From the human T2T-CHM13v2.0 reference genome, Homo sapiens, in the NCBI GenBank assembly GCA_009914755.4, contig CP086569.2, positions 55,904,001 through 55,968,000 of the forward strand: 64,000 bases of DNA, given 5' to 3'. Numbering within the stretch: the first letter of the stretch is position 1; each line of letters starts with the position of its first letter. The notes under the pieces are model-generated. The model was given only the letters and a program-made list of their open reading frames with translations, made no database searches and was not told the origin of the DNA. The position numbers and the translations under genes are program-made. Shown one piece after another: positions 1 to 63,924 of this stretch.

Positions 1-43
1 ATCGAATGGAAAGGACTCGAATGGAAATCACTCGAATAGAATG

Positions 44-3000
44 CAATTTAATAAAATAGGATCAAATGTAATGGAATGGAATGGAAAGGAATCGAAACGA
101 AAGGAATGGAGACAGATGGAATGGAATGGAACAGAGAGCAATGGTATAGAATGGAATGGAATCATCTGGAATGGAATTGAATGGAATGGAATAATATGAA
201 ATGGAATGGAATGGAATGGAATGCCCTTGAATTAAATGGACTGGAATGGAATGGACTCGAACAGAGTGGAATGGAAAGTGTTGAGATAGAATGGAATGGA
301 CTCGTTTGGAATGGTCTAGTAGGCAATGCAATCGACTGGCAGGGAATCAAAAGGAATGTAATGGAATGGATTGGACTGGAATGCAATGGACTCGAATAGA
401 TTGGAAACGGAATGCAAAGGAATGGAATGGAATAGAATGGAATGGAATGGAAAGGAATGGAGTGGAATAGACTAGAGTGGAATGGAATGGACTGGAAAGC
501 AATAGACTGGAATGGAACTTTCTTGAATGGACTGGAATCAAACGGAATGGAATGCAATGCAATCAAATGGCATGGAATAAAATAGAATGAAAGAGAATCA
601 AATGGAATTGAATCGAATGGAATCGAATGGATTGGAAAGGAATAGAATGGTATGGAATGGAATTGACTCAAATGGAATGGACTAGAATGGAATGGATTCG
701 AATGGAAGGCAAAGGAATGGAATCTATTGGAATGGACTGTAATGGAATGGAATGGAAGGGATTGGAATGGACTCGAATGGAATGGACTGCAATAGAAAGG
801 ATTCGAATGGAATGAAAAAGAATTGAATGGAATAGAACAGAATGGAATCAAATCGAATGAAATGGAATGGAATAGAAAGGAATGGAATGAAATGGAATGG
901 AAAGGATTCGAATGGAATGCAATCGAATGGAATGGAATCGAACGGAATGGAATAAAATGGAAGAAAACTGGCAAGAAATGGAATCGAAATGAATGGAGTG
1001 TTATGGAACGGACTCAAAAGGAATTGAATGTAATAGAATGGAGTGGAGTGGACTCGAATATAATGGACTGGAATGGAATGAAATCACATGGAATGGGAAC
1101 GAATGGAATGGAATGGAAAGGAATGGAATCGAATGGAAAGGAATCGAATGGAAGGGAATGAAATTGAATCAACAGGAATGGAAGGGAATAGAATAGACGG
1201 TAATGGAATGGACTCGAATAGAATGGACACGAATGCTCAAATTGAATGGACTCGAATGGAATGGAAACGAAAGGAATGTCATCGAATGGAATTGAATCGA
1301 TTGGAATGAAATCGCATAGAATGGAGTGGAATCAAATGGAATTGAATCGAAAGGAAAGGAAGCGAATGGACTGAAATGAAATGGAATGGAATTGAATGGA
1401 AAGTAATGCAATGGAATAGAATGGAACGAAATTTCACGGAATGGAATCAAACTGAATGGAATCAAATCAATGGAATCAAATCAAATGGAATGGAAAGGAA
1501 TTGAATGGAGTAGATTGGATTGGATGGGATTGGAATGAAATGTACTGGAAAGGACTCGAATTTCATGAAACGGAATGGAATGAATTGGAACGGAATGGAC
1601 TCGAATGGAATGGAATGTCATGGAATGGCATCAAATGGAATGGCATCAAATGGAATGGAATCGAATGCAATGGAATGCTATGGAATGGAATGGAATGCAT
1701 TGGAATGGAATGTCCTCTAATGGAATGGATTCGAGTGGAATGGAATCGAATATAATGGAGTCGAATGAAATGGAATTGAAAAGAATGGGATCGAATACAA
1801 TGGAATATACTGGAATGTAATGTAATGAACTCGAATGTAATTGACTGGAATGGAATGTACATGAATGGAATGTAATCGAATGGAAAGTAATCCAATGGAA
1901 TAGAAACTAATGCAATAAAATCGACTCAAATAGAGTAGAATGTAATGGAATGGAGTGCAGTGCAATGGAATGGAATGGAATGGAATGCAATGGAATGGAA
2001 TGGAATGGAATGGAATGGGATGGAATGGTGTGGAATGGATAGTAATGGACTGGTGTGAAATGGACTGGAAAGGAATGGACTCAAATTGAAAGGGCTCGAA
2101 AGGAATGGAGTCAAATGGAATGGTCTGGAATGGAATGAACACGAATGTAATGCAATCCAATAGAATGGAATCGAATGGCATGGAATATAAAGAAATGGAA
2201 TCGAAGAGAATGGAAACAAATGGAATGGAATTGAATGGAATGGAATTGAATGGAATGGGAAGGAATGGAGTGAAATTGTATGCAGTAGAAGAGAATAGAA
2301 TGGAATGCAAGTGAAAGGAAAGGAATGGATTGGAATGGAATGGAATTCATTGGAATGGAAGGGAATGTAGTGTAATGGACAGGCCTGGAATAAAGTGGAA
2401 TGCTACGGTCTCGAATGGAATAAAAATGTATGGAATGGAATGCAATGAAACGGAATCGAATGTCATAGAATGTAATGGAATGCAACAAAATGGAATCCAA
2501 AATCATTGACTGGAAAGGCTGGGTGTCGAAAGGAATTGACTCCAATGGAATGGAATCGAATGGAATGGAAGTGAATAGAATCGAACTAAATCGAATGGAA
2601 AGGAATTGATAGGAACGGAATGGAAAGGAATGCAATGATTTGGCATGGAATGGAATCGAATGGCATCGAATGGAATGGAATGGAATGCAATGGAATGGAA
2701 TGTATTAGAATGTAATGAACTTTAATGGAATGTACTCGAATGGATTCGACTGGAATGGAATGTTCTGGAAGTGAATGGACTCCAATGGAATGGATTCAAA
2801 AGGAATGGAATCGTACGGAATGGAATCTAATGGAATGGAATTAAATGGAAATGAATCAAATTGAATAGCACGGAATTGAATTGAATGGAATGGAATGCAA
2901 TGGAATCTAATGAAACGGAAAGGAAAGGAATGGAATGGAATGGAATGGGCTGGAATGGAAAGGAATCGAAACGAATGGAATGGAATCGAACTGAAGAGAC

Positions 3001-3587
3001 TGGAATGGAATGCACTGGAATGGAAGGGAGTGTAATGGAAGGTTCTCGAAAAAAATGGAATCGAATGGAATGGAATTGAATGGAACGGAATAGAGTCGAA
3101 TGGAATTGAATGGAATGGAATGGACTAGAGTGAAATGGAATCGAACCACAAGGAATGGACAGGAATAGAATGGTCTCGAATTGAATGGAATCGTATGGAA
3201 TGGCATCAAACGGAATGGAATGGACAGCCACGGAATGGAATGCACTCGAATGCAATGGAGTCGAAACTAATGGACTGGAATAGAATGGACTCGACTGGTA
3301 CGGACTCCAATGGAATGGAATCGAATGGAAGGGAATCGAACGGAATGGACTCGAAGGGAAAAGACTGCAATGGAAAGGTCTCGAATGGAATGGAAATTAA
3401 TGGAATGGAATGGAATCGAATGAAATGGAGTCAAAAGGAATGGAATCGAATGGCAAGAAATCGAATGTAATGGAATCGCAAGGAATTGATGTGAACGGAA
3501 CGGAATGGAATGGAATCCAAAGGAATGGAATAGAATGGAATGGAATCGAATGGAAAGGACTCGAATGGAAATCACTCGAATAGAATG
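44..3587 (+). repeat. DYZ1-like HOR copy 1 (3544 bp; variant with the shorter (GGAAT) run before 'gcccttgaatt')
   Basis: Bounded by the 'atgcaatttaataaaatagg' anchor at 44 and at 3588. Confidence 0.8.
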
Positions 3588-6500
3588 CAATTTAATAAAA
3601 TAGGATCAAATGTAATGGAATGGAATGGAAAGGAATCGAAACGAAAGGAATGGAGACAGATGGAATGGAATGGAACAGAGAGCAATGGTATAGAATGGAA
3701 TGGAATCATCTGGAATGGAATTGAATGGAATGGAATAATATGAAATGGAATGGAATGGAATGGAATGCCCTTGAATTAAATGGACTGGAATGGAATGGAC
3801 TCGAACAGAGTGGAATGGAAAGTGTTGAGATAGAATGGAATGGACTCGTTTGGAATGGTCTAGTAGGCAATGCAATCGACTGGCAGGGAATCAAAAGGAA
3901 TGTAATGGAATGGATTGGACTGGAATGCAATGGACTCGAATAGATTGGAAACGGAATGCAAAGGAATGGAATGGAATAGTATGGAATGGAATGGAAAGGA
4001 ATGCAGTGGAATAGACTAGAGTGGAATGGAATGGACTGGAAAGCAATGGACTGGAATGGAACTTTCTTGAATGGACTGGAATCAAACGGAATGGAATGCA
4101 ATGCAATCAAATGGCATGGAATAAAATAGAATGAAAGAGAATCAAATGGAATTGAATCGAATGGAATCGAATGGATTGGAAAGGAATAGAATGGAATGGA
4201 ATGGAATTGACTCAAATGGAATGGACTAGAATGGAATGGATTCGAATGGAAGGCAAAGGAATGGAATCTATTGGAATGGACTGTAATGGAATGGAATGGA
4301 AGGGATTGGAATGGACTCGAATGGAATGGACTGCAATAGAAAGGATTCGAATGGAATGAAAAAGAATTGAATGGAATAGAACAGAATGGAATCAAATCGA
4401 ATGAAATGGAATGGAATAGAAAGGAATGGAATGAAATGGAATGGAAAGGATTCGAATGGAATGCAATCGAATGGAATGGAATCGAACGGAATGGAATAAA
4501 ATGGAAGAAAACTGGCAAGAAATGGAATCGAAATGAATGGAGTGTTATGGAACGGACTCAAAAGGAATTGAATGTAATAGAATGGAGTGGAGTGGACTCG
4601 AATATAATGGACTGGAATGGAATGAAATCACATGGAATGGGAACGAATGGAATGGAATGGAAAGGAATGGAATCGAATGGAAAGGAATCGAATGGAAGGG
4701 AATGAAATTGAATCAACAGGAATGGAAGGGAATAGAATAGACGGTAATGGAATGGACTCGAATAGAATGGACACGAATGCTCAAATTGAATGGACTCGAA
4801 TGGAATGGAAACGAAAGGAATGTCATCGAATGGAATTGAATCGATTGGAATGAAATCGCATAGAATGGAGTGGAATCAAATGGAATTGAATCGAAAGGAA
4901 AGGAAGCGAATGGACTGAAATGAAATGGAATGGAATTGAATGGAAAGTAATGCAATGGAATAGAATGGAACGAAATTTCACGGAATAAAATCAAACTGAA
5001 TGGAATCAAACCAATGGAATCAAATCAAATGGAATGGAAAGGAATTGAATGGAGTAGATTGGATTGGATGGGATTGGAATGAAATGTACTGGAAAGGACT
5101 CGAATTTCATGAAACGGAATGGAATGAATTGGAACGGAACGGACTCGAATGGAATGGAATGTCATGGAATGGCATCAAATGGAATGGCATCAAATGGAAT
5201 GGAATCGAATGCAATGGAATGCTATGGAATGGAATGGAATGCATTTTAATGGAATGTCCTCTAATGGAATGGATTCGAGTGGAATGGAATCGAATATAAT
5301 GGAGTCGAATGAAATGGAATTGAAAGGAATGGGATCGAATACAATGGAATATACTGGAATGTAATGTAATGAACTCGAATGTAATTGACTGGAATGGAAT
5401 GTACATGAATGGAATGTAATCGAATGGAAAGTAATCCAATGGAATAGAATCTAATGCAATAAAATCGACTCAGATAGAGTAGAATGTAATGGAATGGAGT
5501 GCAGTGCAATGGAATGGAATGGAATGGAATGCAATGGAATGGAATGGAATGGAATGGAATGGAATGGAATGGAATGGTGTGGAATGGATAGTAATGGACT
5601 GGAGTGAAATGGACTGGAAAGGAATGGACTCAAATTGAATGGGCTCGAAAGGAATGGAGTCAAATGGAATGGTCTGGAATGGAATGAACACGAATGTAAT
5701 GCAATCCAATAGAATGGAATCGAATGGCATGGAATATAAAGAAATGGAATCGAAGAGAATGGAAACAAATGGAATGGAATTGAGTGGAATGGAATTGAAT
5801 GGAATGGGAACCAATGGAGTGAAATTGTATGCAGTAGAAGAGAATAGAATGGAATGCAAGCGAAAGGAAAGGAATGGATTGGAATGGAATGGAATTCATT
5901 GGAATGGAAGGGAATGTAGTGTAATGGACAGGCCTGGAATAAAGTGGAATGCTACGGTCTCGAATGGAATAAAAATGTATGGAATGGAATGCAATGAAAG
6001 GGAATCGAATGTCATAGAATGTAATGGAATGCAACAAAATGGAATCCAAAATCATTGACTGGAAAGGCTGGGTGTCGAAAGGAATTGACTCCAATGGAAT
6101 GGAATCGAATGGAATGGAAGTGAATAGAATCGAACTAAATCGAATGGAATGGAATTGATAGGAACGGAATGGAAAGGAATGCAATGATTTGGCATGGAAT
6201 GGAATCGAATGGCATCGAATGGAATGGAATGGAATGCAATGGAATGGAATGTATTAGAATGTAATGAACTTTAATGGAATGTACTCGAATGGATTCGACT
6301 GGAATGGAATGTTCTGGAAGTGAATGGACTCCAATGGAATGGATTCAAAAGGAATGGAATCGTACGGAATGGAATCTAATGGAATGGAATTAAATGGAAA
6401 TGAATCAAATTGAATAGCACGGAATTGAATTGAATGGAATGGAATGCAATGGAATCTAATGAAACGGAAAGGAAAGGAATGGAATGGAATGGAATGGGCT

Positions 6501-7133
6501 GGAATGGAAAGGAATCGAAACGAATGGAATGGAATCGAACTGAAGAGACTGGAATGGAATGCACTGGAATGGAAGGGAGTGTAATGGAAGGTTCTCGAAA
6601 AAAATGGAATCGAATGGAATGGAATTGAATGGAACGGAATAGAGTCGAATGGAATTGAATGGAATGGAATGGACTAGAGTGAAATGGAATCGAACCACAA
6701 GGAATGGACAGGAATAGAATGGTCTCGAATTGAATGGAATCGTATGGAATGGCATCAAACGGAATGGAATGGACAGCCACGGAATGGAATGCACTCGAAT
6801 GCAATGGAGTCGAAACTAATGGACTGGAATAGAATGGACTCGACTGGTACGGACTCCAATGGAATGGAATCGAATGGAAGGGAATCGAACGGAATGGACT
6901 CGAAGGGAAAAGACTGCAATGGAAAGGTCTCGAATGGAATGGAAATTAATGGAATGGAATGGAATCGAATGAAATGGAGTCAAAAGGAATGGAATCGCAT
7001 GGCAAGAAATCGAATGTAATGGAATCGCAAGGAATTGATGTGAACGGAACGGAATGGAATGGAATCCAAAGGAATGGAATAGAATGGAATGGAATCGAAT
7101 GGAAAGGACTCGAATGGAAATCACTCGAATAGA
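3588..7133 (+). repeat. DYZ1-like HOR copy 2 (3546 bp)
   Basis: Anchor motif at 3588 and 7134. Confidence 0.8.
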
Positions 7134-10100
7134 ATGCAATTTAATAAAATAGGATCAAATGTAATGGAATGGAATGGAAAGGAATCGAAACGAAAGGAAT
7201 GGAGACAGATGGAATGGAATGGAACAGAGAGCAATGGTATAGAATGGAATGGAATCATCTGGAATGGAATTGAATGGAATGGAATAATATGAAATGGAAT
7301 GGAATGGAATGGAATGGAATGCCCTTGAATTAAATGGACTGTAATGGAATGGACTCGAACAGAGTGGAATGGAAAGTGTTGAGATAGAATGGAATGGACT
7401 CGTTTGGAATGGTCTAGTATGCAATGCAATCGACTGGCAGGGAATCAAAAGGAGTGTAATGGAATGGATTGGACTGGAATGCAATGGACTCGAATAGATT
7501 GGAAACGGAATGCAAAGGAATGGAATGGAATAGTATGGAATGGAATGGAAAGGAATGGAGTGGAATAGACTAGAGTGGAATGGAATGGACTGGAAAGCAA
7601 TAGACTGGAATGGAACTTTCTTGAATGGACTGGAATCAAACGGAATGGAATGCAATGCAATCAAATGGCATGGAATAAAATAGAATGAAAGAGAATCAAA
7701 TGGAATTGAATCGAATGGAATCGAATGGATTGGAAAGGAATAGAATGGAATGGAATGGAATTGACTCAAATGGAATGGACTAGAATGGAATGGATTCGAA
7801 TGGAAGGCAAAGGAATGGAATCTATTGGAATGGACTGTAATGGAATGGAATGGAAGGGATTGGAATGGACTCGAATGGAATGGACTGCAATAGAAAGGAT
7901 TCGAATGGAATGAAAAAGAATTGAATGGAATAGAACAGAATGGAATCAAATCGAATGAAATGGAGTGGAATAGAAAGGAATGGAATGAAATGGAATGGAA
8001 AGGATTCGAATGGAATGCAATCGAATGGAATGGAATCGAACGGAATGGAATAAAATGGAAGAAAACTGGCAAGAAATGGAATCGAAATGAATGGAGTGTT
8101 ATGGAACGGACTCAAAAGGAATTGAATGTAATAGAATGGAGTGGAGTGGACTCGAATATAATGGACTGGAATGGAATGAAATCACATGGAATGGGAACGA
8201 ATGGAATGGAATGGAAAGGAATGGAATCGAATGGAAAGGAATCGAATGGAAGGGAATGAAATTGAATCAACAGGAATGGAAGGGAATAGAATAGACGGTA
8301 ATGGAATGGACTCGAATAGAATGGACACGAATGCTCAAATTGAATGGACTCGAATGGAATGGAAACGAAAGGAATGTCATCGAATGGAATTGAATCGATT
8401 GGAATGAAATCGCATAGAATGGAGTGGAATCAAATGGAATTGAATCGAAAGGAAAGGAAGCGAATGGACTGAAATGAAATGGAATGGAATTGAATGGAAA
8501 GTAATGCAATGGAATAGAATGGAACGAAATTTCACGGAATGGAATCAAACTGAATGGAATCAAATCAATGGAATCAAATCAAATGGAATGGAAAGGAATT
8601 GAATGGAGTAGATTGGATTGGATGGGATTGGAATGAAATGTACTGGAAAGGACTCGAATTTCATGAAACGGAATGGAATGAATTGGAACGGAATGGACTC
8701 GAATGGAATGGAATGTCATGGAATGGCATCAAATGGAATGGCATCAAATGGAATGGAATCGAATGCAATGGAATGCTATGGAATGGAATGGAATGCATTG
8801 GAATGGAATGTCCTCTAATGGAATGGATTCGAGTGGAATGGAATCGAATATAATGGAGTCGAATGAAATGGAATTGAAAAGAATGGGATCGAATACAATG
8901 GAATATACTGGAATGTAATGTAATGAACTCGAATGTAATTGACTGGAATGGAATGTACATGAATGGAATGTAATCGAATGGAAAGTAATCCAATGGAATA
9001 GAAACTAATGCAATAAAATCGACTCAAATAGAGTAGAATGTAATGGAATGGAGTGCAGTGCAATGGAATGGAATGGAATGGAATGCAATGGAATGGAATG
9101 GAATGTTATGGAATGGAATGGAATGGATTGGAATGGGATGGAATGGTATGGAATGGATAGTAATGGACTGGAGTGAAATGGACTGGAAAGGAATGGACTC
9201 AAATTGAAAGGGCTCGAAAGGAATGGAGTCAAATGGAATAGTCTGGAATGGAATGAACACGAATGTAATGCAATCCAATAGAATGTAATCGAATGGCATG
9301 GAATATAAAGAAATGGAATCGAAGAGAATGGAAACAAATGGAATGGAATTGAATGGAATGGAATTGAATGGAATGGGAACGAATGGAGTGAAATTGTATG
9401 CAGTAGAAGAGAATAGAATGGAATGCAAGCGAAAGGAAAGGAATGGATTGGAATGGAATGGAATTCATTGGAGTGGAAGGGAATGTAGTGTAATGGACAG
9501 GCCTGGAATAAAGTGGAATGCTACGGTCTCGAATGGAATAAAAATGTATGGAATGGAATGCAATGAAAGGGAATCGAATGTCATAGAATGTAATGGAATG
9601 CAAAAAAATGGAATCCAAAATCATTGACTGGAAAGGCTGGGTGTCGAAAGGAATTGACTCCAATGGAATGGAATCGAATGGAATGGAAGTGAATAGAATC
9701 GAACTAAATCGAATGGAATGGAATTGATAGGAACGGAATGGAGAGGAATGCAATGATTTGGCATGGAATGCAATCGAATGGCATCGAATGGAATGGAATG
9801 GAATGCAATGGAATGGAATGTATTAGAATGTAATGAACTTTAATGGAATGTACTCGAATGGATTCGACTGGAATGGAATGTTCTGGAAGTGAATGGACTC
9901 CAATGGAATGGATTCAAAAGGAATGGAATCGTACGGAATGGAATCTAATGGAATGGAATTAAATGGAAATGAATCAAATTGAATAGCACGGAATTGAATT
10001 GAATGGAATGGAATGCAATGGAATCTAATGAAACGGAAAGGAAAGGAATGGAATGGAATGGAATGGGCTGGAATGGAAAGGAATCGAAACGAATGGAATG

Positions 10101-10702
10101 GAATCGAACTGAAGAGACTGGAATGGAATGCACTGGAATGGAAGGGAGTGTAATGGAAGGTTCTCGAAAAAAATGGAATCGAATGGAATGGAATTGAATG
10201 GAACGGAATAGAGTCGAATGGAATTGAATGGAATGGAATGGACTAGAGTGAAATGGAATCGAACCACAAGGAATGGACAGGAATAGAATGGTCTCGAATT
10301 GAATGGAATCGTATGGAATGGCATCAAACGGAATGGAATGGACAGCCACGGAATGGAATGCACTCGAATGCAATGGAGTCGAAACTAATGGACTGGAATA
10401 GAATGGACTCGACTGGTACGGACTCCAATGGAATGGAATCGAATGGAAGGGAATCGAACGGAATGGACTCGAAGGGAAAAGACTGCAATGGAAAGGTCTC
10501 GAATGGAATGGAAATTAATGGAATGGAATGGAATCGAATGAAATGGAGTCAAAAGGAATGGAATCGAATGGCAAGAAATCGAATGTAATGGAATCGCAAG
10601 GAATTGATGTGAACGGAACGGAATGGAATGGAATCCAAAGGAATGGAATAGAATGGAATGGAATCGAATGGAAAGGACTCGAATGGAAATCACTCGAATA
10701 GA
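7134..10702 (+). repeat. DYZ1-like HOR copy 3 (3569 bp; one extra GGAAT before 'gcccttgaatt'; 'ctgtaatgg' SNP)
   Basis: Anchor motif at 7134 and 10703. Confidence 0.8.
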
Positions 10703-13700: not shown

Positions 13701-14261
13701 AAGGGAGTGTAATGGAAGGTTCTCGAAAAAAATGGAATCGAATGGAATGGAATTGAATGGAACGGAATAGAGTCGAATGGAATTGAATGGAATGGAATGG
13801 ACTAGAGTGAAATGGAATCGAACCACAAGGAATGGACAGGAATAGAATGGTCTCGAATTGAATGGAATCGTATGGAATGGCATCAAACGGAATGGAATGG
13901 ACAGCCACGGAATGGAATGCACTCGAATGCAATGGAGTCGAAACTAATGGACTGGAATAGAATGGACTCGACTGGTACGGACTCCAATGGAATGGAATCG
14001 AATGGAAGGGAATCGAACGGAATGGACTCGAAGGGAAAAGACTGCAATGGAAAGGTCTCGAATGGAATGGAAATTAATGGAATGGAATGGAATCGAATGA
14101 AATGGAGTCAAAAGGAATGGAATCGAATGGCAAGAAATCGAATGTAATGGAATCGCAAGGAATTGATGTGAACGGAACGGAATGGAATGGAATCCAAAGG
14201 AATGGAATAGAATGGAATGGAATCGAATGGAAAGGACTCGAATGGAAATCACTCGAATAGA
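10703..14261 (+). repeat. DYZ1-like HOR copy 4 (3559 bp)
   Basis: Anchor motif at 10703 and 14262. Confidence 0.8.
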
Positions 14262-17200: not shown

Positions 17201-17820
17201 ATGGAAAGGAATCGAAACGAATGGAATGGAATCGAACTGAAGAGACTGGAATGGAATGCACTGGAATGGAAGGGAGTGTAATGGAAGGTTCTCGAAAAAA
17301 ATGGAATCGAATGGAATGGAATTGAATGGAACGGAATAGAGTCGAATGGAATTGAATGGAATGGAATGGACTAGAGTGAAATGGAATCGAACCACAAGGA
17401 ATGGACAGGAATAGAATGGTCTCGAATTGAATGGAATCGTATGGAATGGCATCAAACGGAATGGAATGGACAGCCACGGAATGGAATGCACTCGAATGCA
17501 ATGGAGTCGAAACTAATGGACTGGAATAGAATGGACTCGACTGGTACGGACTCCAATGGAATGGAATCGAATGGAAGGGAATCGAACGGAATGGACTCAA
17601 AGGGAAAAGACTGCAATGGAAAGGTCTCGAATGGAATGGAAATTAATGGAATGGAATGGAATCGAATGAAATGGAGTCAAAAGGAATGGAATCGAATGGC
17701 AAGAAATCGAATGTAATGGAATCGCAAGGAATTGATGTGAACGGAACGGAATGGAATGGAATCCAAAGGAATGGAATAGAATGGAATGGAATCGAATGGA
17801 AAGGACTCGAATGGAAATCA
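14262..17820 (+). repeat. DYZ1-like HOR copy 5 (3559 bp)
   Basis: Anchor motif at 14262 and 17821. Confidence 0.8.
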
Positions 17821-40986: not shown

Positions 40987-43900
40987 ATGCAATTTAATAA
41001 AATAGGATCAAATGTAATGGAATGGAATGGAAAGGAATCGAAACGAAAGGAATGGAGACAGATTTAATGGAATAGAACAGAGAGCAATGGTATAGAATGG
41101 AATGGAATCATCTGGAATGGAATTGAATGGAATGGAATAATATGAAATGGAATGGAATGGAATGGAATGGAATGCCCTTGAATTAAATGGACTGGAATGG
41201 AATGGACTCGAACAGAGTGGAATGGAAAGTGTTGAGATAGAATGGAATGGACTCGTTTGGAATGGTCTAGTATGCAATGCAATCGACTGGCAGGGAATCA
41301 AAAGGAATGTAATCGAATGGATTGGACTGGAATGCAATGGACTCGAATAGATTGCAAACGGAATGCAAAGGAATGGAATGGAATAGTATGGAATGGAATG
41401 GAAAGGAATGGAGCGGAATAGACTAGAGTGGAATGGAATGGACTGGAAAGCAATGGACTGGAATGGAACTTTCTTGAATGGACTGGAATCAAACGGAATG
41501 GAATGCAATGCAATCAAATGGCATGGAATAAAATAGAATGAAAGAGAATCAAATGGAATTGAATCGAATGGAATCGAATGGATTGGAAAGGAATAGAATG
41601 GAATGGAATGGAATGGACTAGAATGGAATGGATTCGAATGGAAGGCAAAGGAATGGAATCTATTGGAATGGACTGTAATGGAATGGAATGGAAGGGATTG
41701 GAATGGACTCGAATGGAATGGACTGCAATAGAAAGGATTCGAATGGAATGAAAAAGAATTGAATGGAATAGAACAGAATGGAATCAAATCGAATGAAATG
41801 GAATGGAATAGAAAGGAATGGAATGAAATGGAATGGAAAGGATTCGAATGGAATGCAATCGAATGGAATGGAATCGAACGGAATGGAATAAAATGGAAGA
41901 AAACTGGCAAGAAATGGAATCGAAATGAATGGAGTGTTATGGAACGGACTCAAAAGGAATTGAATGTAATAGAATGGAGTGGAGTGGACTCGAATATAAT
42001 GGACTGGAATGGAATGAAATCACATGGAATGGGAACGAATAGAATGGAATGGAAAGGAATGGAATCGAATGGAAAGGAATCGAATGGAAGGGAATGAAAT
42101 TGAATCAACAGGAATGGAAGGGAATAGAATAGACGGTAATGGAATGGACTCGAATAGAATGGACACGAATGCTCAAATTGAATGGACTCGAATGGAATGG
42201 AAACGAAAGGAATGTCATCGAATGGAATTGAATCGATTGGAATGAAATCGCATAGAATGGAGTGGAATCAAATGGAATTGAATCGAAAGGAAAGGAAGCG
42301 AATGGACTGAAATGAAATGGAATGGAATTGAATGGAAAGTAATGCAATGGAATAGAATGGAACGAAATTTCACGGAATGGAATCAAACTGAATGGAATCA
42401 AATCAATGGAATCCAATCAAATGGAATGGAGTAGATTGGATTGGATGGGATTGGAATGAAATGTACTGGAAAGGACTCGAATTTCATGAAACGGAATGGA
42501 ATGAATTGGAACGGAATGGACTCGAATGGAATGGAATGTCATGGAATGGCATCAAATGGAATGGCATCAAATGGAATGGAATCGAATGCAATGGAATGCT
42601 ATGGAATGGAATGGAATGCATTGGAATGGAATGTCCTCTAATGGAATGGATTCGAGTGGAATGGAATCGAATATAATGGAGTCGAATGAAATGGAATTGA
42701 AAGGAATGGGATCGAATACAATGGAATATACTGGAATGTAATGTAATGAACTCGAATGTAATTGACTGGAATGGAATGTACATGAATGGAATGTAATCGA
42801 ATGGAAAGTAATCCAATGGAATAGAATTTAATGCAATAAAATCGACTCAGATAGAGTAGAATGTAATGGAATGGAGTGCAGTGCAATGGAATGGAATGGA
42901 ATGGAATGCAATAGAATGGAATGGAATGGAATGGAATGCAATGGAATGGGATGGAATGGTATGGAATGGATGGTAATGGACTGGAGTGAAATGGACTGGA
43001 AAGGAATGGACTCAAATTGAAAGGGCTGGAAAGGAATGGAGTCAAATGGAATGGTCTGGAATGGAATGAACACGAAAGTAATGCAATCCAATAGAATGGA
43101 ATCGAATGGCATGGAATATAATGAAATGGAATCGAAGAGAATGGAAACAAATGGAATGGAATTGAATGGAATGGAATTGAATGGAATGGGAACGAATGGA
43201 GTGAAATTGTATGCAGTAGAAGGGAATAGAATGGAATGCAAGCGAAAGGAAAGGAATGGATTGGAATGGAATGGAATTCATTGGAATGGAAGGGAATGTA
43301 GTGTAATGGACAGGCCTGGAATAAAGTGGAATGCTACGGTCTCGAATGGAATAAAAATGTATGGAATGGAATGCAATGAAACGGAATCGAATGTCATAGA
43401 ATGTAATGGAATGCAAAAAAATGGAATCCAAAATCATTGACTGGAAAGGCTGGGTGTCGAAAGGAATTGACTCCAATGGAATGGAATCGAATGGAATGGA
43501 AGTGAATAGAATCGAACTAAATCGAATGGAATGGAATTGATAGGAACGGAATGGAAAGGAATGCAATGATTTGGCACGGAAAGGAATCGAATGGCATCGA
43601 ACGGAATGGAATGGAATGCAATTGAATGGAACGTATTAGAATGTAATGAACTTTAATGGAATGTACTCGAATGGATTCGACTGGAATGGAATGTTCTCGA
43701 AGTGAATGGACTCCAATGGAATGGATTCAAAAGGAATGGAATCGTACGGAATGGAATCTAATGGAATGGAATTAAATGGAAATGAATCAAATTGAATAGC
43801 ATGGAATTGAATTGAATGGAATCGAATGCAATGGAATCTAATGAAACGGAAAGGAAAGTAATGGAATGGAATGGAATGGGCTGGAATGGAAAGGAATCGA

Positions 43901-44514
43901 AACGAATGGAATGGAATCGAACTGACGAGACTGGAATGGAATGCACTGGAATGGAAGGGAGTGTAATGGAAGGTTCTCGAAAAAAATGGAATCGAATGGA
44001 ATGGAATTGAATGGAACGGAATAGAGTCGAATGGAATTGAATGGAATGGAATGGACTAGAGTGAAATGGAATCGAACCACAAGGAATGGAGAGGAATAGA
44101 ATGGTCTCGAATTGAATGGAATCGTATGGAATGGCATCAAACGGAATGGAATGGACAGCCACGGAATGGAATGCACTCGAATGCCATGGAGTCGAAACTA
44201 ATGGACTGGAATAGAATGGATTCGACTGGTACGGACTCCAATGGAATGGAATCGAATGGAAGGGAATCGAACGGAATGGACTCGAAGGGAAAAGACTGCA
44301 ATGGAAAGGTCTCGAATGGAATAGAAATTAATGGAATGGAATGGAATCGAATGAAATGGAGTCAAAAGGAATGGAATCGAATGGCAAGAAATCGAATGTA
44401 ATGGAATCGCCAGGAATTGATGTGAACGGAACGGAATGGAATGGAATCCAAAGGAATGGAATAGAATGGAATGGAATCGAATGGAAAGGACTCGAATGGA
44501 AATCACTCGAATAG
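40987..44514 (+). repeat. DYZ1-like HOR copy 12 (3528 bp; has the same 15-bp deletion near 41601 as copy 8)
   Basis: Anchor motif at 40987 and 44515. Confidence 0.8.
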
Positions 44515-47500
44515 AATGCAATTTAATAAAATAGGATCAAATGTAATGGAATGGAATGGAAAGGAATCGAAACGAAAGGAATGGAGACAGATGGAATGGA
44601 ATGGAACAGAGAGCAATGGTATAGAATGGAATGGAATCATCTGGAATGGAATTGAATGGAATGGAATAATATGAAATGGAATGGAATGGAATGGAATGGA
44701 ATGCCCTTGAATTAAATGGACTGGAATGGAATGGACTCGAACAGAGTGGAATGGAAAGTGTTGAGATAGAATGGAATGGACTCGTTTGGAATGGTGTAGT
44801 ATGCAATGCAATCGACTGGCAGGGAATCAAAAGGAATGTAATCGAATGGATTGGACTGGAATGCAATGGACTCGAATAGATTGCAAACGGAATGCAAAGG
44901 AATGGAATGGAATAGTATGGAATGGAATGGAAAGGAATGGAGTGGAATAGACTAGAGTGGAATGGAATGGACTGGAAAGCAATGGACTGGAATGGAACTT
45001 TCTTGAATGGACTGGAATCAAACGGAATGGAATGCAATGCAATCAAATGGCATGGAATAAAATAGAATGAAAGAGAATCAAATGGAATTGAATCGAATGG
45101 AATCGAATGGATTGGAAAGGAATAGAATGGAATGGAATGGAATTGACTCAAATGGAATGGACTAGAATGGAATGGATTCGAATGGAAGGCAAAGGAATGG
45201 AATCTATTGGAATGGACTGTAATGGAATGGAATGGAAGGGATTGGAATGGACTCGAATGGAATGGACTGCAATAGAAAGGATTCGAATGGAATGAAAAAG
45301 AATTGAATGGAATAGAACAGAATGGAATCAAATCGAATGAAATGGAATGGAATAGAAAGGAATGGAATGAAATGGAATGGAAAGGATTCGAATGGAATGC
45401 AATCGAATGGAATGGAATCGAACGGAATGGAATAAAATGGAAGAAAACTGGCAAGAAATGGAATCGAAATGAATGGAGTGTTATGGAACGGACTCAAAAG
45501 GAATTGAATGTAATAGAATGGAGTGGAGTGGACTCGAATATAATGGACTGGAATGGAATGAAATCACATGGAATGGGAACGAATGGAATGGAATGGAAAG
45601 GAATGGAATCGAATGGAATCGAATTGAAAGGAATCGAATGGAAGGGAATGAAATTGAATCAACAGGAATGGAAGGGAATAGAATAGACGGTAATGGAATG
45701 GACTCGAATAGAATGGACACGAATGCTCAAATTGAATGGACTGGAATGGAATGGAAACGAAAGGAATGTCATCGAATGGAATTGAATCGATTGGAATGAA
45801 ATCGCATAGAATGGAGTGGAATCAAATGGAATTGAATCGAAAGGAAAGGAAGCGAATGGACTGAAATGAAATGGAATGGAATTGAATGGAAAGTTATGTA
45901 ATAGAATAGAATGGAACGAAATTTCACTGAATGGAATCAAACTGAATGGAATCAAATCAATGGAATCAAATCAAATGGAATGGAAAGGAATTGAATGGAG
46001 TAGATTGGATTGGATGGGATTGGAATGAAATGTACTGGAAAGGACTCGAATTTCATGAAACGGAATGGAATGAATTGGAACGGAACGGACTCGAATGGAA
46101 TGGAATGTCATGGAATGGCATCAAATGGAATGGCATCAAATGGAATGGAATCGAATGCAATGGAATGCTATGGAATGGAATGGAATGCATTGGAATGGAA
46201 TGTCCTCTAATGGAAGGGATTCGAGTGGAATGGAATCGAATATAATGGAGTCGAATGAAATGGAATTGAAAGGAATGGGATCGAATACAATGCAATATAC
46301 TGGAATGTAATGTAATGAACTCGAATGTAATTGACTGGAATGGAATGTACATGAATGGAATGTAATCGAATGGAAAGTAATCCAATGGAATAGAATCTAA
46401 TGCAATAAAATCGACTCAGATAGAGTAGAATGTAATGGAATGGAGTGCAGTGCCATGGAATGGAATGGAATGGAATGGAATGGAATGGAATGCAATGGAA
46501 TGGAATGGAATGGAATGGAATGGGATGGAATGGTGTGGAATGGATAGTAATGGACTGGAGTGAAATGGACTGGAAAGGAATGGACTCAAATTGAAAGGGC
46601 TCGAAAGGAATGGAGTCAAATGGAATGGTCTGGAATGGAATGAACACGAATGTAATGCAACCCAATAGAATGGAATCGAATGGCATGGAATATAAAGAAA
46701 TGGAATCGAAGAGAATGGAAACAAATGGAATGGAATTGAATGGAATGGAATTGAATGGAATGGGAACGAATGGAGTGAAATTGTATGCAGTAGAAGAGAA
46801 TAGAATGGAATGCAAGCGAAAGGAAAGGAATGGATTGGAATGGAATGGAATTCATTGGAATGGAAGGGAATGTAGTGTAATGGACAGGCCTGGAATAAAG
46901 TGGAATGCTACGGTCTCGAATGGAATAAAAATGTATGGAATGGAATGCAATGAAACGGAATCGAATGTCATAGAATGTAATGGAATGCAACAAAATGGAA
47001 TCCAAAATCATTGACTGGAAAGGCTGGGTGACGAAAGGAATTGACTCCAATGGAATGGAATCGAATGGAATGGAAGAGAATAGAATCGAACTAAATCGAA
47101 TGGAATGGAATTGATAGGAACGGAATGGAAAGGAATGCAATCATTTGGCATGGAATGGAATCGAATGGCATCGAATGGAATGGAATGGAATGCAATGGAA
47201 TGGAATGTATTAGAATGTAATGAACTTTAATGGAATGTACTCGAATGGAATCGACTGGAATGGAATGTTCTGGAAGTGAATGGACTCCAATGGAATGGAT
47301 TCAAAAGGAATGGAATCGTACGGAATGGAATCTAATGGAATGGAATTAAATGGAAATGAATCAAACTGAATAGAACGGAATTGAATTGAATGGAATCGAA
47401 TGCAATGGAATCTAATGAAACGGAAAGGAAAGGAATGGAATGGAATGGAATGGGCTGGAATGGAAAGGAATCGAAACGAATGGAATGGAATCGAACTGAA

Positions 47501-48087
47501 GAGACTGGAATGGAATGCACTGGATGGAAGGGAGTGTAATGGAAGGTTCTCGAAAAAAATGGAATCGAATGGAATGGAATTGAATGGAACGGAATAGAGT
47601 CGAATGGAATTGAATGGAATGGAATGGACTAGAGTGAAATGGAATCGAACCACAAGGAATGGACAGGAATAGAATGGTCTCGAATTGAATGGAATCGTAT
47701 GGAATGGCATCAAACGGAATGGAATGGACAGCCACGGAATGGAATGCACTCGAATGCAATGGAGTCGAAACTAATGGACTGGAATAGAATGGACTCGACT
47801 GGTACGGACTCCAATGGAATGGAATCGAATGGAAGGGAATCGAACGGAATGGACTCGAAGGGAAAAGACTGCAATGGAAAGGTCTCGAATGGAATGGAAA
47901 TTAATGGAATGGAATGGAATCGAATGAAATGGAGTCAAAAGGAATGGAATCGAATGGCAAGAAATCGAATGTAATGGAATCGCAAGGAATTGATGTGAAC
48001 GGAACGGAATGGAATGGAATCCAAAGGAATGGAATAGAATGGAATGGAATCGAATGGAAAGGACTCGAATGGAAATCACTCGAATAG
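44515..48087 (+). repeat. DYZ1-like HOR copy 13 (3573 bp; ~10-bp insertion near 45611)
   Basis: Anchor motif at 44515 and 48088. Confidence 0.8.
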
Positions 48088-51000
48088 AATGCAATTTAAT
48101 AAAATAGGATCAAATGTAATGGAATGGAATGGAAAGGAATCGAAACGAAAGGAATGGAGACAGATGGAATGGAATGGAACAGAGAGCAATGGTATAGAAT
48201 GGAATGGAATCATCTGGAATGGAATTGAATGGAATGGAATAATATGAAATGGAATGGAATGGAATGGAATGGAATGCCCTTGAATTAAATGGACTGGAAT
48301 GGAATGGACTCGAACAGAGTGGAATGGAAAGTGTTGAGATAGAATGGAATGGACTCCTTTGGAATGCTGTAGTATGCAATGCAATCGACTGGCAGGGAAT
48401 CAAAAGGAATGTAATCGAATGGATTGGACTGGAATGCAATGGACTCGAATAGATTGGAAACGGAATGCAAAGGAATGGAATGGAATAGTATGGAATGGAA
48501 TGGAAAGGAATGGAGTGGAATAGACTAGAGTGGAATGGAATGGACTCGAAAGCAATGGACTGGAATGGAACTTTCTTGAATGGACTGGAATCAAACGGAA
48601 TGGAATGCAATGCAATCAAATGGCATGGAATAAAATAGAATGAAAGAGAATCAAATGGAATTGAATCGAATGGAATCGAATGGATTGGAAAGGAATAGAA
48701 TGGAATGGAATGGAATTGACTCAAATGGAATGGACTAGAATGGAATGGATTCGAATGGAAGGCAAAGGAATGGAATCTATTGGAATGGACTGTAATGGAA
48801 TGGAATGGAAGGGATTGGAATGGACTCGAATGGAATGGACTGCAATAGAAAGGATTCGAATGGAATGAAAAAGAATTGAATGGAATAGAACAGAATGGAA
48901 TCAAATCGAATGAAATGGAATGGAATAGAAAGGAATGGAATGAAATGGAATGGAAAGGATTCGAATGGAATGCAATCGAATGGAATGGAATCGAACGGAA
49001 TGGAATAAAATGGAAGAAAACTGGCAAGAAATGGAATCGAAATGAATGGAGTGTTATGGAACGGACTCAAAAGGAATTGAATGTAATAGAATGGAGTGGA
49101 GTGGACTCGAATATAATGGACTGGAATGGAATGAAATCACATGGAATGGGAACGAATGGAATGGAATGGAAAGGAATGGAATCGAATGGAAAGGAATCGA
49201 ATGGAAGGGAATGAAATTGAATCAACAGGAATGGAAGGGAATAGAATAGACGGTAATGGAATGGACTCGAATAGAATGGACACGAATGCTCAAATTGAAT
49301 GGACTCGAATGGAATGGAAACGAAAGGAATGTCATCGAATGGAATTGAATCGATTGGAATGAAATAGCATAGAATGGAGTGGAATCAAATGGAATTGAAT
49401 CGAAAGGAAAGGAAGCGAATGGACTGAAATGAAATGGAATGCAATTGAATGGAAAGTTATGTAATGGAATAGAATGGAACGAAATTTCACGGAATGCAAT
49501 CAAACTGAATGGAATCAAATCAATGGAATCAAATCAAATTGAATGGAAAGGAATTGAATGGAGTAGATTGGATTGGATGGGATTGGAATGAAATGTACTG
49601 GAAAGGACTCGAATTTCATGAAACGGAATGGAATGAATTGGAACGGAACGGACTCGAATGGAATGGAATGTCATGGAATGGCATCAAATGGAATGGCATC
49701 AAATGGAATGGAATCGAATGCAATGGAGTGCTATGGAATGGAATGGAATGCATTGGAATGGAATGTCCTCTAATGGAATGGATACGAGTGGAATGGAATC
49801 GAATATAATGGAGTCGAATGAAATGGAATTGAAAGGAATGGGATCGAATACAATGGAATATACTGGAATGTAATGTAATGAACTCGAATGTAATTGACTG
49901 GAATGGAATGTATATGAATGGAATGTAATTGAATGGAAAGTAATCCAATGGAATAGAATCTAATGCAATAAAATCGACTCAGATAGAGTAGAATGTAATG
50001 GAATGGAGTGCAGTGCAATGGAATGGAATGGAATGGAATGCAATGGAATGGAATGGAATGGAATGGAATGGAATGGGATGGAATGGTGTGGAATGGATAG
50101 TAATGGACTGGAGTGAAATGGACTGGAAAGGAATGGCCTCAAATTGAAAGGGCTCGAAAGGAATGGAGTCAAATGGAATGGTCTGGAATGGAATGAACAC
50201 GAATGTAATGCAATCCAATAGAATGGAATCGAATGGCATGGAATATAAAGAAATGGAATCGAAGAGAATGGAAACAAATGGAATGGAATTGAATGGAATG
50301 GAATTGAATGGAATGGGAACGAATGGAGTGAAATTGTATGCAGTAGAAGAGAATAGAATGGAATGCAAGCGAAAGGAAAGGAATGGATTGGAATGGAATG
50401 GAATTCATTGGAATGGAAGGGAATGTAGTGTAATGGACAGGCCTGGAATAAAGTGGAATGCTACGGTCTCGAATGGAATAAAAATGTATGGAATGGAATG
50501 CAATGAAACGGAATCGAATGTCATAGAATGTAATGGAATGCAAAAAAATGGAATCCAAAATCATTGACTGGAAAGGCTGGGTGTCGAAAGGAATTGTCTC
50601 CAATGGAATGGAATCGAATGGAATGGAAGTGAATAGAATCGAACTAAATCGAATGGAATGGAATTGATAGGAACGGAATGGAAAGGAATGCAATGATTTG
50701 GCATGGAATGCAATCGAATGGCATCGAATGGAATGGAATGGAATGCAATGGAATGGAATGTATTAGAATGTAATGAACTTTAATGGTATGTACTCGAATG
50801 GATTCGACTGGAATGGAATGTTCTGGAAGTGAATGGACTCCAATGGAATGGATTCAAAAGGAATGGAATCGTACGGAATGGAATCTAATGGAATGGAATT
50901 AAATGGAAATGAATCAAATTGAATAGCACGGAATTGAATTGAATGGAATCGAATGCAATGGAATCTAATGAAACGGAAAGGAAAGGAATGGAATGGAATG

Positions 51001-51642
51001 GAATGGGCTGGAATGGAAAGGAATCGAAACGAATGGAATGGAATCGAACTGAAGAGACTGGAATGGAATGCACTGGAATGGAAGGGAGTGTAATGGAAGG
51101 TTCTCGAAAAAAATGGAATGGAATGGAATGGAATTGAATGGAACGGAATAGAGTCGAATGGAATTGAATGGAATGGAATGGACTAGAGTGAAATGGAATC
51201 GAACCACAAGGAATGGACAGGAATAGAATGGTCTCGAATTGAATGGAATCGTATGGAATGGCATCAAACGGAATGGAATGGACAGCCACGGAATGGAATG
51301 CACTCGAATGCAATGGAGTCGAAACTAATGGACTGGAATAGAATGGACTCGACTGGTACGGACTCCAATGGAATGGAATCGAATGGAAGGGAATCGAACG
51401 GAATGGACTCGAAGGGAAAAGACTGCAATGGAGAGGTCTCGAATGGAATGGAAATTAATGGAATGGAATGGAATCGAATGAAATGGAGTCAAAAGGAATG
51501 GAATCGAATGGCAAGAAATCGAATGTAATGGAATCGCAAGGAATTGATGTGAACGGAACGGAATGGAATGGAATCCAAAGGAATGGAATAGAATGGAATG
51601 GAATCGAATGGAAAGGACTCGAATGGAAATCACTCGAATAGA
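48088..51642 (+). repeat. DYZ1-like HOR copy 14 (3555 bp; extra GGCC at ~50134 from 'ggaatggcctc')
   Basis: Anchor motif at 48088 and 51643. Confidence 0.8.
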
Positions 51643-53494
51643 ATGCAATTTAATAAAATAGGATCAAATGTAATGGAATGGAATGGAAAGGAATCGAAAC
51701 GAAAGGAATGGAGACAGATGGAATGGAATGGAACAGAGAGCAATGGTATAGAATGGAATGGAATCATCTGGAATGGAATTGAATGGAATGGAATAACATG
51801 AAATGGACTGGAATGGAATGGAATGCCCTTGAATTAAATGGACTGGAATGGAATGGACTCGAACAGAGTGGAATGGAAAGTGTTGAAATATAATGGAATG
51901 GACTGGTTTGGAATGGTCTAGTATGCAATGCAATCGACTGGCAGGGAATCAAAAGGAATGTAATCGAATGGATTGGACTGGAATGCAATGGACTCGAATA
52001 GATTGGAAACGGAATGCAAAGGAATGGAATGGAATAGTATGGAATGGAATGGAAAGGAATGGAGTGGAATAGACTAGAGTGGAATGGAATGGACTCGAAA
52101 GCAATGGACTGGAATGGAACTTTCTTGAATGGACTGGAATCAAACGGAATGGAATGCAATGCAATCAAATGGCATGGAATAAAATAGAATGAAAGAGAAT
52201 CAAATGGAATTGAATCGAATGGAATCGAATGGATTGGAAAGGAATAGAATGGAATGGAATGGAATTGACTCAAATGGAATGGACTAGAATGGAATGGATT
52301 CGAATGGAAGGCAAAGGAATGGAATCTATTGGAATGGACTGTAATGGAATGGAATGGAAGGGATTGGAATGGACTCGAATGGAATGGACTGCAATAGAAA
52401 GGATTCGAATGGAATGAAAAAGAATTGAATGGAATAGAACAGAATGGAATCAAATCGAATGAAATGGAATGGAATAGAAAGGAATGGAATGAAATGGAAT
52501 GGAAAGGATTCGAATGGAATGCAATCGAATGGAATGGAATCGAACGGAATGGAATAAAATGGAAGAAAACTGGCAAGAAATGGAATCGAAATGAATGGAG
52601 TGTTATGGAACGGACTCAAAAGGAATTGAATGTAATAGAATGGAGTGGAGTGGACTCGAATATAATGGACTGGAATGGAATGAAATCACATGGAATGGGA
52701 ACGAATGGAATGGAATGGAAAGGAATGGAATCGAATGGAAAGGAATCGAATGGAAGGGAATGAAATTGAATCAACAGGAATGGAAGGGAATAGAATAGAC
52801 GGTAATGGAATGGACTCGAATAGAATGGACACGAATGCTCAAATTGAATGGACTCGAATGGAATGGAAACGAAAGGAATGTCATCGAATGGAATTGAATC
52901 GATTGGAATGAAATCGCATAGAATGGAGTGGAATCAAATGGAATTGAATCGAAAGGAAAGGAAGCGAATGGACTGAAATGAAATGGAATGGAATTGAATG
53001 GAAAGTAATGCAATGGAAAAGAATGGAACGAAATTTCACGGAATGGAATCAAACTGAATGGAATCAAATCAATGGAATCAAATCAAATGGAATGGAAAGG
53101 AATTGAATGGAGTAGATGGGATTGGATGGGATTGGAATGAAATGTACTGGAAAGGACTCGAATTTCATGAAACGGAATGGAATGAATTGGAACGGAATGG
53201 ACTCGAATGGAATGGAATGTCATGGAATGGCATCAAATGGAATGGCATCAAATGGAATGGAATCGAATGTAATGGAATGGAATGCATTGGAATGGAATGT
53301 CCTCTAATGGAATGGATTCGAGTGGAATGGAATCGAATATAATGGAGTCGAATGAAATGGAATTGAAAGGAATGGGATCGAATACAATGGAATATACTGG
53401 AATGTAATGTAATGAACTCGAATGTATTTGACTGGAATGGAATGTACATGAATGGAATGTAATCGAATGGAAAGTAATCCAATGGAATAGAATC
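51643..53494 (+). repeat. DYZ1-like terminal HOR copy, truncated at 1852 bp by the junction with the AT-rich satellite
   Basis: The anchor is at 51643. The pentamer satellite stops at '...aaagtaatccaatggaatagaatc' (53494), where other copies continue 'taatgcaataaaatcgactca'. Confidence 0.8.

Positions 53495-54542
<1,048 letters not shown>

Positions 54543-55109: not shown

Positions 55110-63924
<8,815 letters not shown>

What the first reader, a model, noticed from the sequence alone, without database searches (positions are those of the whole stretch)
1..53494. ~3.55-kb higher-order repeat with one GGCC (HaeIII) site per copy, matching the classical DYZ1 definition
A long unique-ish motif recurs 15 times at spacings of 3524-3574 bp. 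GGCC ('ggacaggcctgg') occurs once per copy at 2382, 5931, 9500, 13059 and so on. This reproduces the 3.56-kb HaeIII ladder by which DYZ1 was first defined. Together with the flanking 2.42-kb Alu-containing unit, it places the window in Yq12 heterochromatin. It is not in a 9q12, 15p or acrocentric HSat3 block. This sets the context for everything else in the window.
Basis: partly seen in the sequence, partly recalled or inferred. Interest (0 to 1): 0.5.

Follow-up and report, generated by a model that had tools for sequence, protein, structure and literature searches.

The report
Human Y-chromosome DYZ1 satellite array

Summary
Window 1-53494 is a (GGAAT)n-derived satellite arranged in a ~3.55-kb higher-order unit, with copies 97.8-100% identical. 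It abuts exact 2,420-bp units containing an Alu from 53495 onward. It is DYZ1 (HSat3A6). The published HSat3A6-specific 24-mer occurs 28 times, and the marker 24-mers of the other 13 HSat2/3 subfamilies occur 0 times. Eight published DYZ1 primers each map once per unit, in the published order. GC and CpG densities match the published DYZ1 and DYZ2 values. The neighbouring unit has the published DYZ2 length and anatomy. The HaeIII ladder is real but less regular than described. There are 13 phase-conserved GGCC sites, not 15. One site was lost to a 1-bp deletion at 34388. One unit is a 5,402-bp hybrid, which gives an 8,966-bp fragment. One unit has a second site, at 50135. Traces of array turnover are visible. 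Nearly all indels are multiples of 5 bp. The hybrid unit's breakpoint lies in a perfect (GGAAT)n run. A block of at least 6 kb recurs almost identically 17,795 bp (five units) away. The DYZ1-to-DYZ2 junction geometry recurs in an independent public contig. Verdict: already known, correctly interpreted, low interest.

The parts
1..53494 (+). DYZ1 (HSat3A6) array. The GGAAT-rich strand is on +. It holds about 15 unit-equivalents of a ~3.55-kb higher-order unit.
   Evidence: TRF period 5 over 65-53493. blastn tiling at 97.8-100% identity. HSat3A6 24-mer found 28 times and the other subfamily markers 0 times. Published DYZ1 primers map in the published order.
1..2381 (+). Partial DYZ1 unit, cut by the window edge (unit positions 1164-3549).
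2382..34387 (+). Nine full DYZ1 units of 3,524-3,574 bp. Each starts at a conserved HaeIII site within GGACAGGCCTGG.
34388..39789 (+). A 5,402-bp hybrid DYZ1 unit. Its HaeIII site was lost to a 1-bp deletion. Unit position ~3196 is joined back to ~1330-1365, so about 1.85 kb of the unit is present twice.
37555..37587 (+). Breakpoint interval of the hybrid unit. It lies inside a perfect (GGAAT)n run that is homologous to both parental positions.
   Evidence: Overlapping blastn segments and three-way sequence comparison.
39790..50439 (+). Three full DYZ1 units. The last one carries a second GGCC at 50135.
50440..53494 (+). Terminal DYZ1 unit, truncated at unit position ~3070 where the array meets DYZ2.
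1..5999 (+). Copy 1 of a near-identical block. Its partner is 17791-23794, 17,795 bp (five units) away. 5,348 bp are exact (652-5999). Its left edge lies outside the window.
17791..23794 (+). Copy 2 of the near-identical block. Divergence returns to about 1.2% immediately to its right.
53495..55100 (+). First DYZ2 (HSat1B) unit, 1,606 bp. It begins at unit position 47 and lacks positions ~138-897 of the AT-rich part.
55101..62360 (+). Three full DYZ2 units of exactly 2,420 bp each, ungapped, 98.6-100% identical to one another.
62361..64000 (+). Partial DYZ2 unit, cut by the window edge.
54245..54536 (-). 5'-truncated Alu subunit of DYZ2. It aligns to AluY consensus positions 13-289 at 80.5% identity. 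It recurs at +2420, +4840 and +7260.
   Evidence: Alignment to an AluY consensus written from memory. Alu-derived mir-1268 matches below threshold at a 2,420-bp period.

Best explanation
Window 1-53494 is the end of a DYZ1 array. DYZ1 is the Y-specific Human Satellite 3 subfamily HSat3A6, found in Yq12 heterochromatin. The array meets a DYZ2 (HSat1B) array at 53494/53495.

It is a nested tandem repeat. An ancestral GGAAT/ATTCC pentamer array diverged, and a ~3.55-kb stretch of it was then amplified as a unit. The classical one-per-unit HaeIII site is simply a diverged pentamer position inherited by each copy.

Mechanism, inferred from the anatomy and from published work on Yq12: the array is maintained and remodelled by intrachromosomal unequal exchange, slippage in pentamer register and gene conversion. 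These processes keep copies about 98-100% alike while producing length variants, hybrid units and multi-unit duplications.

The array is non-coding constitutive heterochromatin. Any trans effect, such as acting as a dense platform of GGAATG (TEAD-core) sites, comes from the literature and was not shown here.
For: Shown here:
- Higher-order tiling at 97.8-100% identity, against only about 0.65 self-match at a 5-bp lag.
- Only the HSat3A6 marker 24-mer is present, 28 times, out of 14 subfamily markers (markers listed).
- Eight published DYZ1 primers map in the published order, once per unit (primers).
- Two classical sexing primers, recalled from memory, give a 154-bp amplicon in each unit.
- GC and CpG densities equal the published DYZ1 and DYZ2 values.
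- The DYZ2 unit is exactly 2,420 bp and has the AT-rich block, the 5'-truncated Alu and the ACATACG joint.
- Independent public contigs, which are human contamination, carry the same unit at 97-99.9% identity with HaeIII spacings of 3,539-3,562 bp.

Evidence for the turnover mechanism:
- 31 of 33 gap runs between units are multiples of 5 bp.
- The hybrid unit's breakpoint lies in a perfect (GGAAT)n run.
- A near-identical block of at least 6 kb sits at a five-unit lag and has a sharp right edge.
- DYZ2 units become more diverged towards the array edge: 98.0, 98.6, 99.3 and 100%. This matches the published pattern.
- Unequal exchange, sister-chromatid exchange and gene conversion in Yq12 are reported in the literature.
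- GGAATG occurs 45 times per kb in the DYZ1 part and 0.4 times per kb in the DYZ2 part. TEAD binding to HSat3 is reported.
Against: - No alignment to a human reference such as T2T-CHM13v2.0 chrY was possible. The position within Yq12, and the individual, are unknown.
- Only one marker 24-mer per subfamily could be tested. The stored copy of the full list is cut before the HSat3A6 entries.
- Altemose 2014 listed a possible minor HSat3A6 signal on chr7.
- DYZ2/HSat1B alone is not Y-specific.
- The exact 5,348-bp duplicate could be an assembly or polishing artefact rather than a biological event.
- The functional statements are from the literature, and the TEAD experiments there used XX cells.
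Confidence: 0.95

Rival explanations
1. An HSat3 array on an acrocentric short arm, or on 9q12 or 15p, that happens to lie next to acrocentric HSat1B.
For: HSat3 and HSat1B both occur on acrocentric short arms, so adjacency alone does not prove a Y origin.
Against: The marker 24-mers of HSat3A1-A5 and B1-B5, which include the chr15, chr9 and acrocentric subfamilies, are all absent, while the HSat3A6 marker occurs 28 times. The unit length of 3.52-3.57 kb and the primer map fit DYZ1. The published repeat units of the acrocentric and chr15 clones are 0.6-1.8 kb, with 3.6 kb also listed for the chr15 clone.
Confidence: 0.02
2. DYZ1-derived sequence that lies outside the main Yq12 block. Two candidates are the 2.7-kb DYZ1/DYZ18 chimeric array at the Yq11/Yq12 border, and Yq12 heterochromatin translocated onto another chromosome in the sampled individual.
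For: A 2.7-kb array with 77% of its unit 97% identical to DYZ1 exists near DYZ18. From general knowledge, Y;acrocentric heterochromatin translocations occur as rare variants.
Against: The units here are full-length 3.55 kb, not 2.7 kb. All eight primer sites spread across the unit are present. The array abuts canonical 2,420-bp DYZ2 units, which is the architecture of Yq12 proper. A translocated copy would still be DYZ1 by sequence.
Confidence: 0.02
3. For the sub-feature only: the exact 5,348-bp duplicate (652-5999 and 18447-23794) is an assembly or polishing artefact, not a real recent duplication or conversion.
For: Zero differences over 5.3 kb, where neighbouring units differ by about 1%. 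Yq12 is among the hardest regions to assemble.
Against: T2T-Y shows many exact matches of 2,000 bp or more, and iterative duplications, in Yq12. Near-identity continues to the left with only 2 mismatches and one 5-bp indel. The right edge is sharp. Both are as expected for a real five-unit duplication or a conversion tract.
Confidence: 0.2

Closest known systems
DYZ1 / HSat3A6 (Nakahori et al. 1986 3,564-bp HaeIII unit; Altemose 2014; T2T-Y, Rhie 2023; Hallast 2023)
   Same: Pentamer-derived ~3.55-kb higher-order unit with one conserved HaeIII site per unit. The HSat3A6 marker 24-mer is present. The primer map is colinear with the published unit. GC is 38.7% and there is 1 CpG per 36 bp. Copies are about 98% or more identical. 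The array is adjacent to DYZ2.
   Different: Nothing essential. Local variants are a 5,402-bp hybrid unit, one lost and one extra HaeIII site, and a five-unit near-identical block.
DYZ2 / HSat1B (the neighbour from 53495 to 64000)
   Same: Exact 2,420-bp unit. It consists of an AT-rich block, a 5'-truncated Alu about 20% diverged from AluY, and a GC-richer HSATI block ending in ACATACG. GC is 24% and there is 1 CpG per ~150 bp.
   Different: The first unit at the junction is 1,606 bp and has an internal gap of about 760 bp.
Autosomal HSat3 arrays (HSat3B5 on 9q12, HSat3A5/D15Z1 on chr15, HSat3A1-A4 and B-types on acrocentrics)
   Same: The same ancestral GGAAT/ATTCC pentamer and the same dense GGAATG motifs.
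   Different: None of their subfamily marker 24-mers are present. The higher-order periods differ.

Membership tests
DYZ1 (HSat3A6) | Tandem higher-order unit of about 3.5-3.6 kb (3,564 bp published), built from diverged TTCCA/GGAAT pentamers. | tested here: met
   Units are 3,523-3,574 bp, and one is exactly 3,564 bp. Each unit has 234-241 GGAAT. The published count is 184-235 TTCCA per unit.
DYZ1 (HSat3A6) | One HaeIII (GGCC) site per unit, giving the 3.4-3.56-kb male-specific ladder. | tested here: met
   13 phase-conserved sites. 10 of the 12 fragments between them are 3,523-3,574 bp. The exceptions are one lost site (the 8,966-bp fragment) and one extra site.
DYZ1 (HSat3A6) | Contains HSat3A6-specific 24-mers and lacks those of the other HSat2/3 subfamilies. 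| tested here: met
   TCGTTTCGATTCCTTTCCATTCCA occurs 28 times. The other 13 subfamily markers occur 0 times. Only one marker per subfamily could be tested.
DYZ1 (HSat3A6) | Colinear with the published DYZ1 unit sequence. | tested here: met
   Eight published primers, at published unit positions 16-3606, map in order. Each maps 12-16 times with at most 1 error, and offsets are within about 15 bp for B-G. No full reference sequence was available to align.
DYZ1 (HSat3A6) | Male- and Y-specific, located at Yq12. | not testable with these tools
   No human genome assembly or XX/XY read sets were available. The feature is inferred from the markers above and from the adjacency to DYZ2.
DYZ2 (HSat1B) | Unit of about 2.4 kb (2,413/2,420 bp), consisting of an AT-rich repeat, a 5'-truncated Alu and HSATI, with ACATACG at the HSATI/AT-rich joint. 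| tested here: met
   Three ungapped 2,420-bp units. The Alu aligns to consensus positions 13-289 at 80.5% identity. ACATACG lies at 55104-55110. GC is 24%.
Autosomal HSat3 (9q12 HSat3B5, chr15 HSat3A5, acrocentric A1-A4 and B1-B4) | Presence of the subfamily's own marker 24-mer. | tested here: not met
   0 matches on either strand for every one of these markers.

The most novel reading that the evidence does not exclude
The DYZ1-to-DYZ2 junction in this window may be one ancestral junction copied across many or all Yq12 block boundaries by the iterative multi-block duplications. The junction has DYZ1 cut at unit position ~3070, DYZ2 entered at position 47, and a first DYZ2 unit of 1,606 bp, which gives a ~3.97-kb HaeIII junction fragment. 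An independent, noisy public contig shows the same geometry. If so, junction variants, together with markers such as the 5.4-kb hybrid unit and the 17.8-kb five-unit block, could serve as characters for reconstructing the duplication history of Yq12 across haplogroups.
Probability: 0.4. Interest if true: 0.2.

Novelty: already known. Interest (0 to 1): 0.07.

Why it matters
The main value is context. It fixes the window as human Yq12 heterochromatin, at a DYZ1/DYZ2 array boundary. Any other finding in this window should therefore be read as satellite DNA, not as genes or microbial sequence. The long 'ORFs' on the minus strand, the Alu and mir-1268-like hits and the strong strand skews are all by-products of the satellites. 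The small structural variants illustrate textbook satellite turnover by unequal exchange and conversion in a non-recombining chromosome. They add no new principle.

Tried and rejected
- Literature search for the two classical sexing primers as exact strings found no paper in the held library. They are cited only as my recollection, although they map and give a 154-bp amplicon.
- A '154 bp' plus DYZ1 search returned an unrelated STS/TSPY assay.
- The full list of subfamily-specific 24-mers (Altemose 2014, Dataset S2) is stored truncated. Part 1, the only part read, lists only HSat2A1 entries, and a search found no HSat3A6 term in the file. Only the Table 1 markers were used.
- An exact 32-mer across the DYZ1/DYZ2 junction had 0 matches in metagenome and genome contigs. 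The junction was instead recovered through a noisy contig fetched with the HaeIII-site 23-mer.
- Ungapped autocorrelation did not show the higher-order period cleanly, because units differ by 5-bp-multiple indels. blastn tiling did.
- I looked for a general five-unit super-repeat. Only u1 and u6 are identical, and the other pairs five units apart (u2/u7, u3/u8, u4/u9) differ by 24-42 mismatches. It is therefore a single block, not a regular higher period.
- I looked for long internal sub-repeats within the 3.55-kb unit and found none beyond 5-bp and 15-bp periodicities.
- Rfam gave only sub-threshold Alu-derived mir-1268 matches.
- The protein tools were not used. The ORFs are artefacts of stop-free (ATTCC)n frames.
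Full report
**Observation**

The window has a very skewed composition: A 25,727, G 17,465, T 15,070 and C 5,738. GGAAT occurs 3,567 times on the + strand, against 7 ATTCC. Tandem Repeats Finder reports one 5-bp array over 65-53493. GC content drops from about 0.38-0.41 to 0.14-0.40 after 53.5 kb.

A blastn of the stretch between the first two GGCC sites (2382-5930) tiles the whole of 1-53494 at 97.8-100% identity. The tiling runs as follows:
- a partial unit, 1-2381
- nine full units, to 34387
- a rearranged stretch, 34388-39789
- three full units, to 50439
- a truncated terminal unit, 50440-53494

The full units are 3,523-3,574 bp long, and one is exactly 3,564 bp. Self-match at a 5-bp lag is only about 0.65. 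This is therefore a true higher-order repeat: diverged pentamers amplified together as a 3.55-kb block.

**The HaeIII ladder**

The 12-mer GGACAGGCCTGG occurs 13 times, against 0 in 100 shuffles.

The ladder is not as regular as the finding states:
- At 34388 the site is GGCTGG, a 1-bp deletion.
- The unit that starts there is 5,402 bp, because unit position ~3196 is joined back to ~1330-1365.
- That breakpoint (37555-37587) lies inside a perfect (GGAAT)n run that matches both parental positions.
- As a result there is one 8,966-bp fragment.
- A second GGCC at 50135 splits one unit into 3,248 and 305 bp.

The count of GGCC sites in the array (14) equals a first-order Markov expectation of 14.6. 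What is non-random is the phase of the sites, not their number.

**Identity**

Five lines of evidence support DYZ1.

1. Altemose et al. [quoted passage not shown] Only the HSat3A6 marker (Y, DYZ1) is present. It occurs 28 times, twice per unit, all on the strand expected. The markers for chr9 HSat3B5, chr15 HSat3A5, the acrocentric subfamilies and HSat2 are all absent.
2. Eight primers published for the 3,564-bp DYZ1 HaeIII unit (PMC3925983 Table 5) each map 12-16 times with at most 1 error. They lie in the published order and orientation.
3. Two classical Y-sexing primers, recalled from memory and not confirmed in the literature available here, flank the HaeIII site and give a 154-bp product in each unit.
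4. The array has 38.7% GC and 1 CpG per 36 bp. The neighbour has 23.9% GC and 1 CpG per 154 bp. Hallast et al. report 38% and 1/35 for DYZ1, and 24% and 1/150 for DYZ2.
5. Independent public contigs carry the same unit at 97-99.9% identity to the window consensus. They were fetched with the 23-mer around the HaeIII site. Their HaeIII spacings are 3,539-3,562 bp.

**The neighbour**

From 53495 the sequence consists of units of exactly 2,420 bp: 55101-57520, 57521-59940 and 59941-62360, followed by a partial unit. They are ungapped and 98.6-100% alike.

Each unit has three parts:
- an AT-rich block of about 1.55 kb
- an Alu on the minus strand (54245-54536), aligning to AluY consensus positions 13-289 at 80.5% identity (consensus written from memory)
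- a GC-richer block that ends in ACATACG (55104-55110)

This matches the published DYZ2/HSat1B description, including the 2,420-bp consensus length, the 5'-truncated Alu about 20% diverged from AluY, and the ACATACG joint. Rfam gives only sub-threshold Alu-derived mir-1268 matches, spaced 2,420 bp apart.

**The junction**

DYZ1 stops at unit position ~3070. DYZ2 begins at its position 47. The first DYZ2 unit is only 1,606 bp and lacks positions ~138-897.

An independent, noisy contig (BNJU01004413.1, locus L019) shows the same geometry. DYZ1 is followed by DYZ2 positions 898-2420. The last DYZ1 HaeIII site lies 3,976 bp from the first Alu site, against 3,966 bp in the window.

**How it works**

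The sequence shows several traces of array turnover:
- 31 of 33 gap runs between units are multiples of 5 bp.
- One unit is a hybrid formed by an out-of-register join within perfect pentamer runs.
- Block 1-5999 is nearly identical to 17791-23794, 17,795 bp (five units) away. 5,348 bp are exact, and the rest has 2 mismatches and one 5-bp indel.
- That block has a sharp right edge, after which divergence returns to about 1.2%.
- DYZ2 units become more diverged towards the boundary.

These features fit the published model, in which Yq12 evolves by intrachromosomal unequal exchange, iterative duplication and gene conversion, with more divergent units at array edges. That the particular events here arose in this way is an inference. 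The exact duplicate could also be an assembly artefact.

Function is also inferred. The array is non-coding heterochromatin. It carries 45 GGAATG (TEAD-core) motifs per kb, against 0.4 per kb in DYZ2. HSat3 has been reported to bind TEAD and other factors.

**Comparison and verdict**

All defining features of DYZ1 that I could test are met. The defining markers of the autosomal HSat3 subfamilies are not met. Y-linkage itself could not be tested directly, because no human assembly was available. This is an already known satellite, and the interest is low.

Noticed in passing
window 34388-39789 (breakpoint about 37555-37587): A 5,402-bp hybrid DYZ1 unit. Unit position ~3196 is joined back to ~1330-1365 inside perfect (GGAAT)n runs. 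Its HaeIII site was lost to a 1-bp deletion (GGCCTGG to GGCTGG), which produces an 8,966-bp HaeIII fragment.
   Followed up: yes
window 1-5999 and 17791-23794: A near-identical block at a lag of 17,795 bp (five units). 5,348 bp are exact (652-5999 and 18447-23794). The right edge is sharp and the left edge lies outside the window. It is a recent five-unit duplication, a conversion tract or an assembly artefact.
   Followed up: partly
window 53495-55100; L019 4090-5892: The first DYZ2 unit at the DYZ1/DYZ2 junction is 1,606 bp and lacks unit positions ~138-897. The same junction geometry, with a ~3.97-kb HaeIII junction fragment, is present in an independent, noisy metagenome contig, BNJU01004413.1.
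   Followed up: partly
window 1-53494 (whole DYZ1 unit): A 15-bp sub-periodicity is stronger than the 5-bp one. Self-match is 0.69 at lag 15 and 0.665 at lag 30, against 0.645 at lags 5, 10 and 20. Indels between units are multiples of 5, commonly 10 bp.
   Followed up: partly
L001-L006 (genome contigs), e.g. BMRF01000076.1 'Actinomadura cremea', BMTN01000077.1 'Streptomyces kurssanovii', BNBB01000077.1 'Streptosporangium violaceochromogenes': Six contigs filed under bacterial genomes are human DYZ1 units, 97-99.9% identical to the window consensus. Some (two of the six, and several metagenome contigs) are about 3.6 kb, which is one collapsed unit. This is human male DNA contamination, as the T2T-Y paper predicted.
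   Followed up: partly
window 162-52576, minus strand: All 39 ORFs of 150 aa or more lie on the minus strand of the DYZ1 part, and nearly all start with TTG. They are stop-free reading frames of (ATTCC)n, not genes.
   Followed up: no
window 50135 and 54406: Two extra private GGCC sites. One is in DYZ1 unit 46887-50439. The other is in the Alu of the first DYZ2 unit only, which has a site at 54406 that the later units lack.
   Followed up: no
window 54349-54415, 56769-56835, 59189-59255, 61609-61675 (minus strand): Sub-threshold Rfam mir-1268 matches (34-38 bits against a gathering score of 83), spaced 2,420 bp apart. They fall inside the Alu subunit of DYZ2 and reflect the Alu origin of that miRNA family. 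They are not miRNA genes.
   Followed up: no
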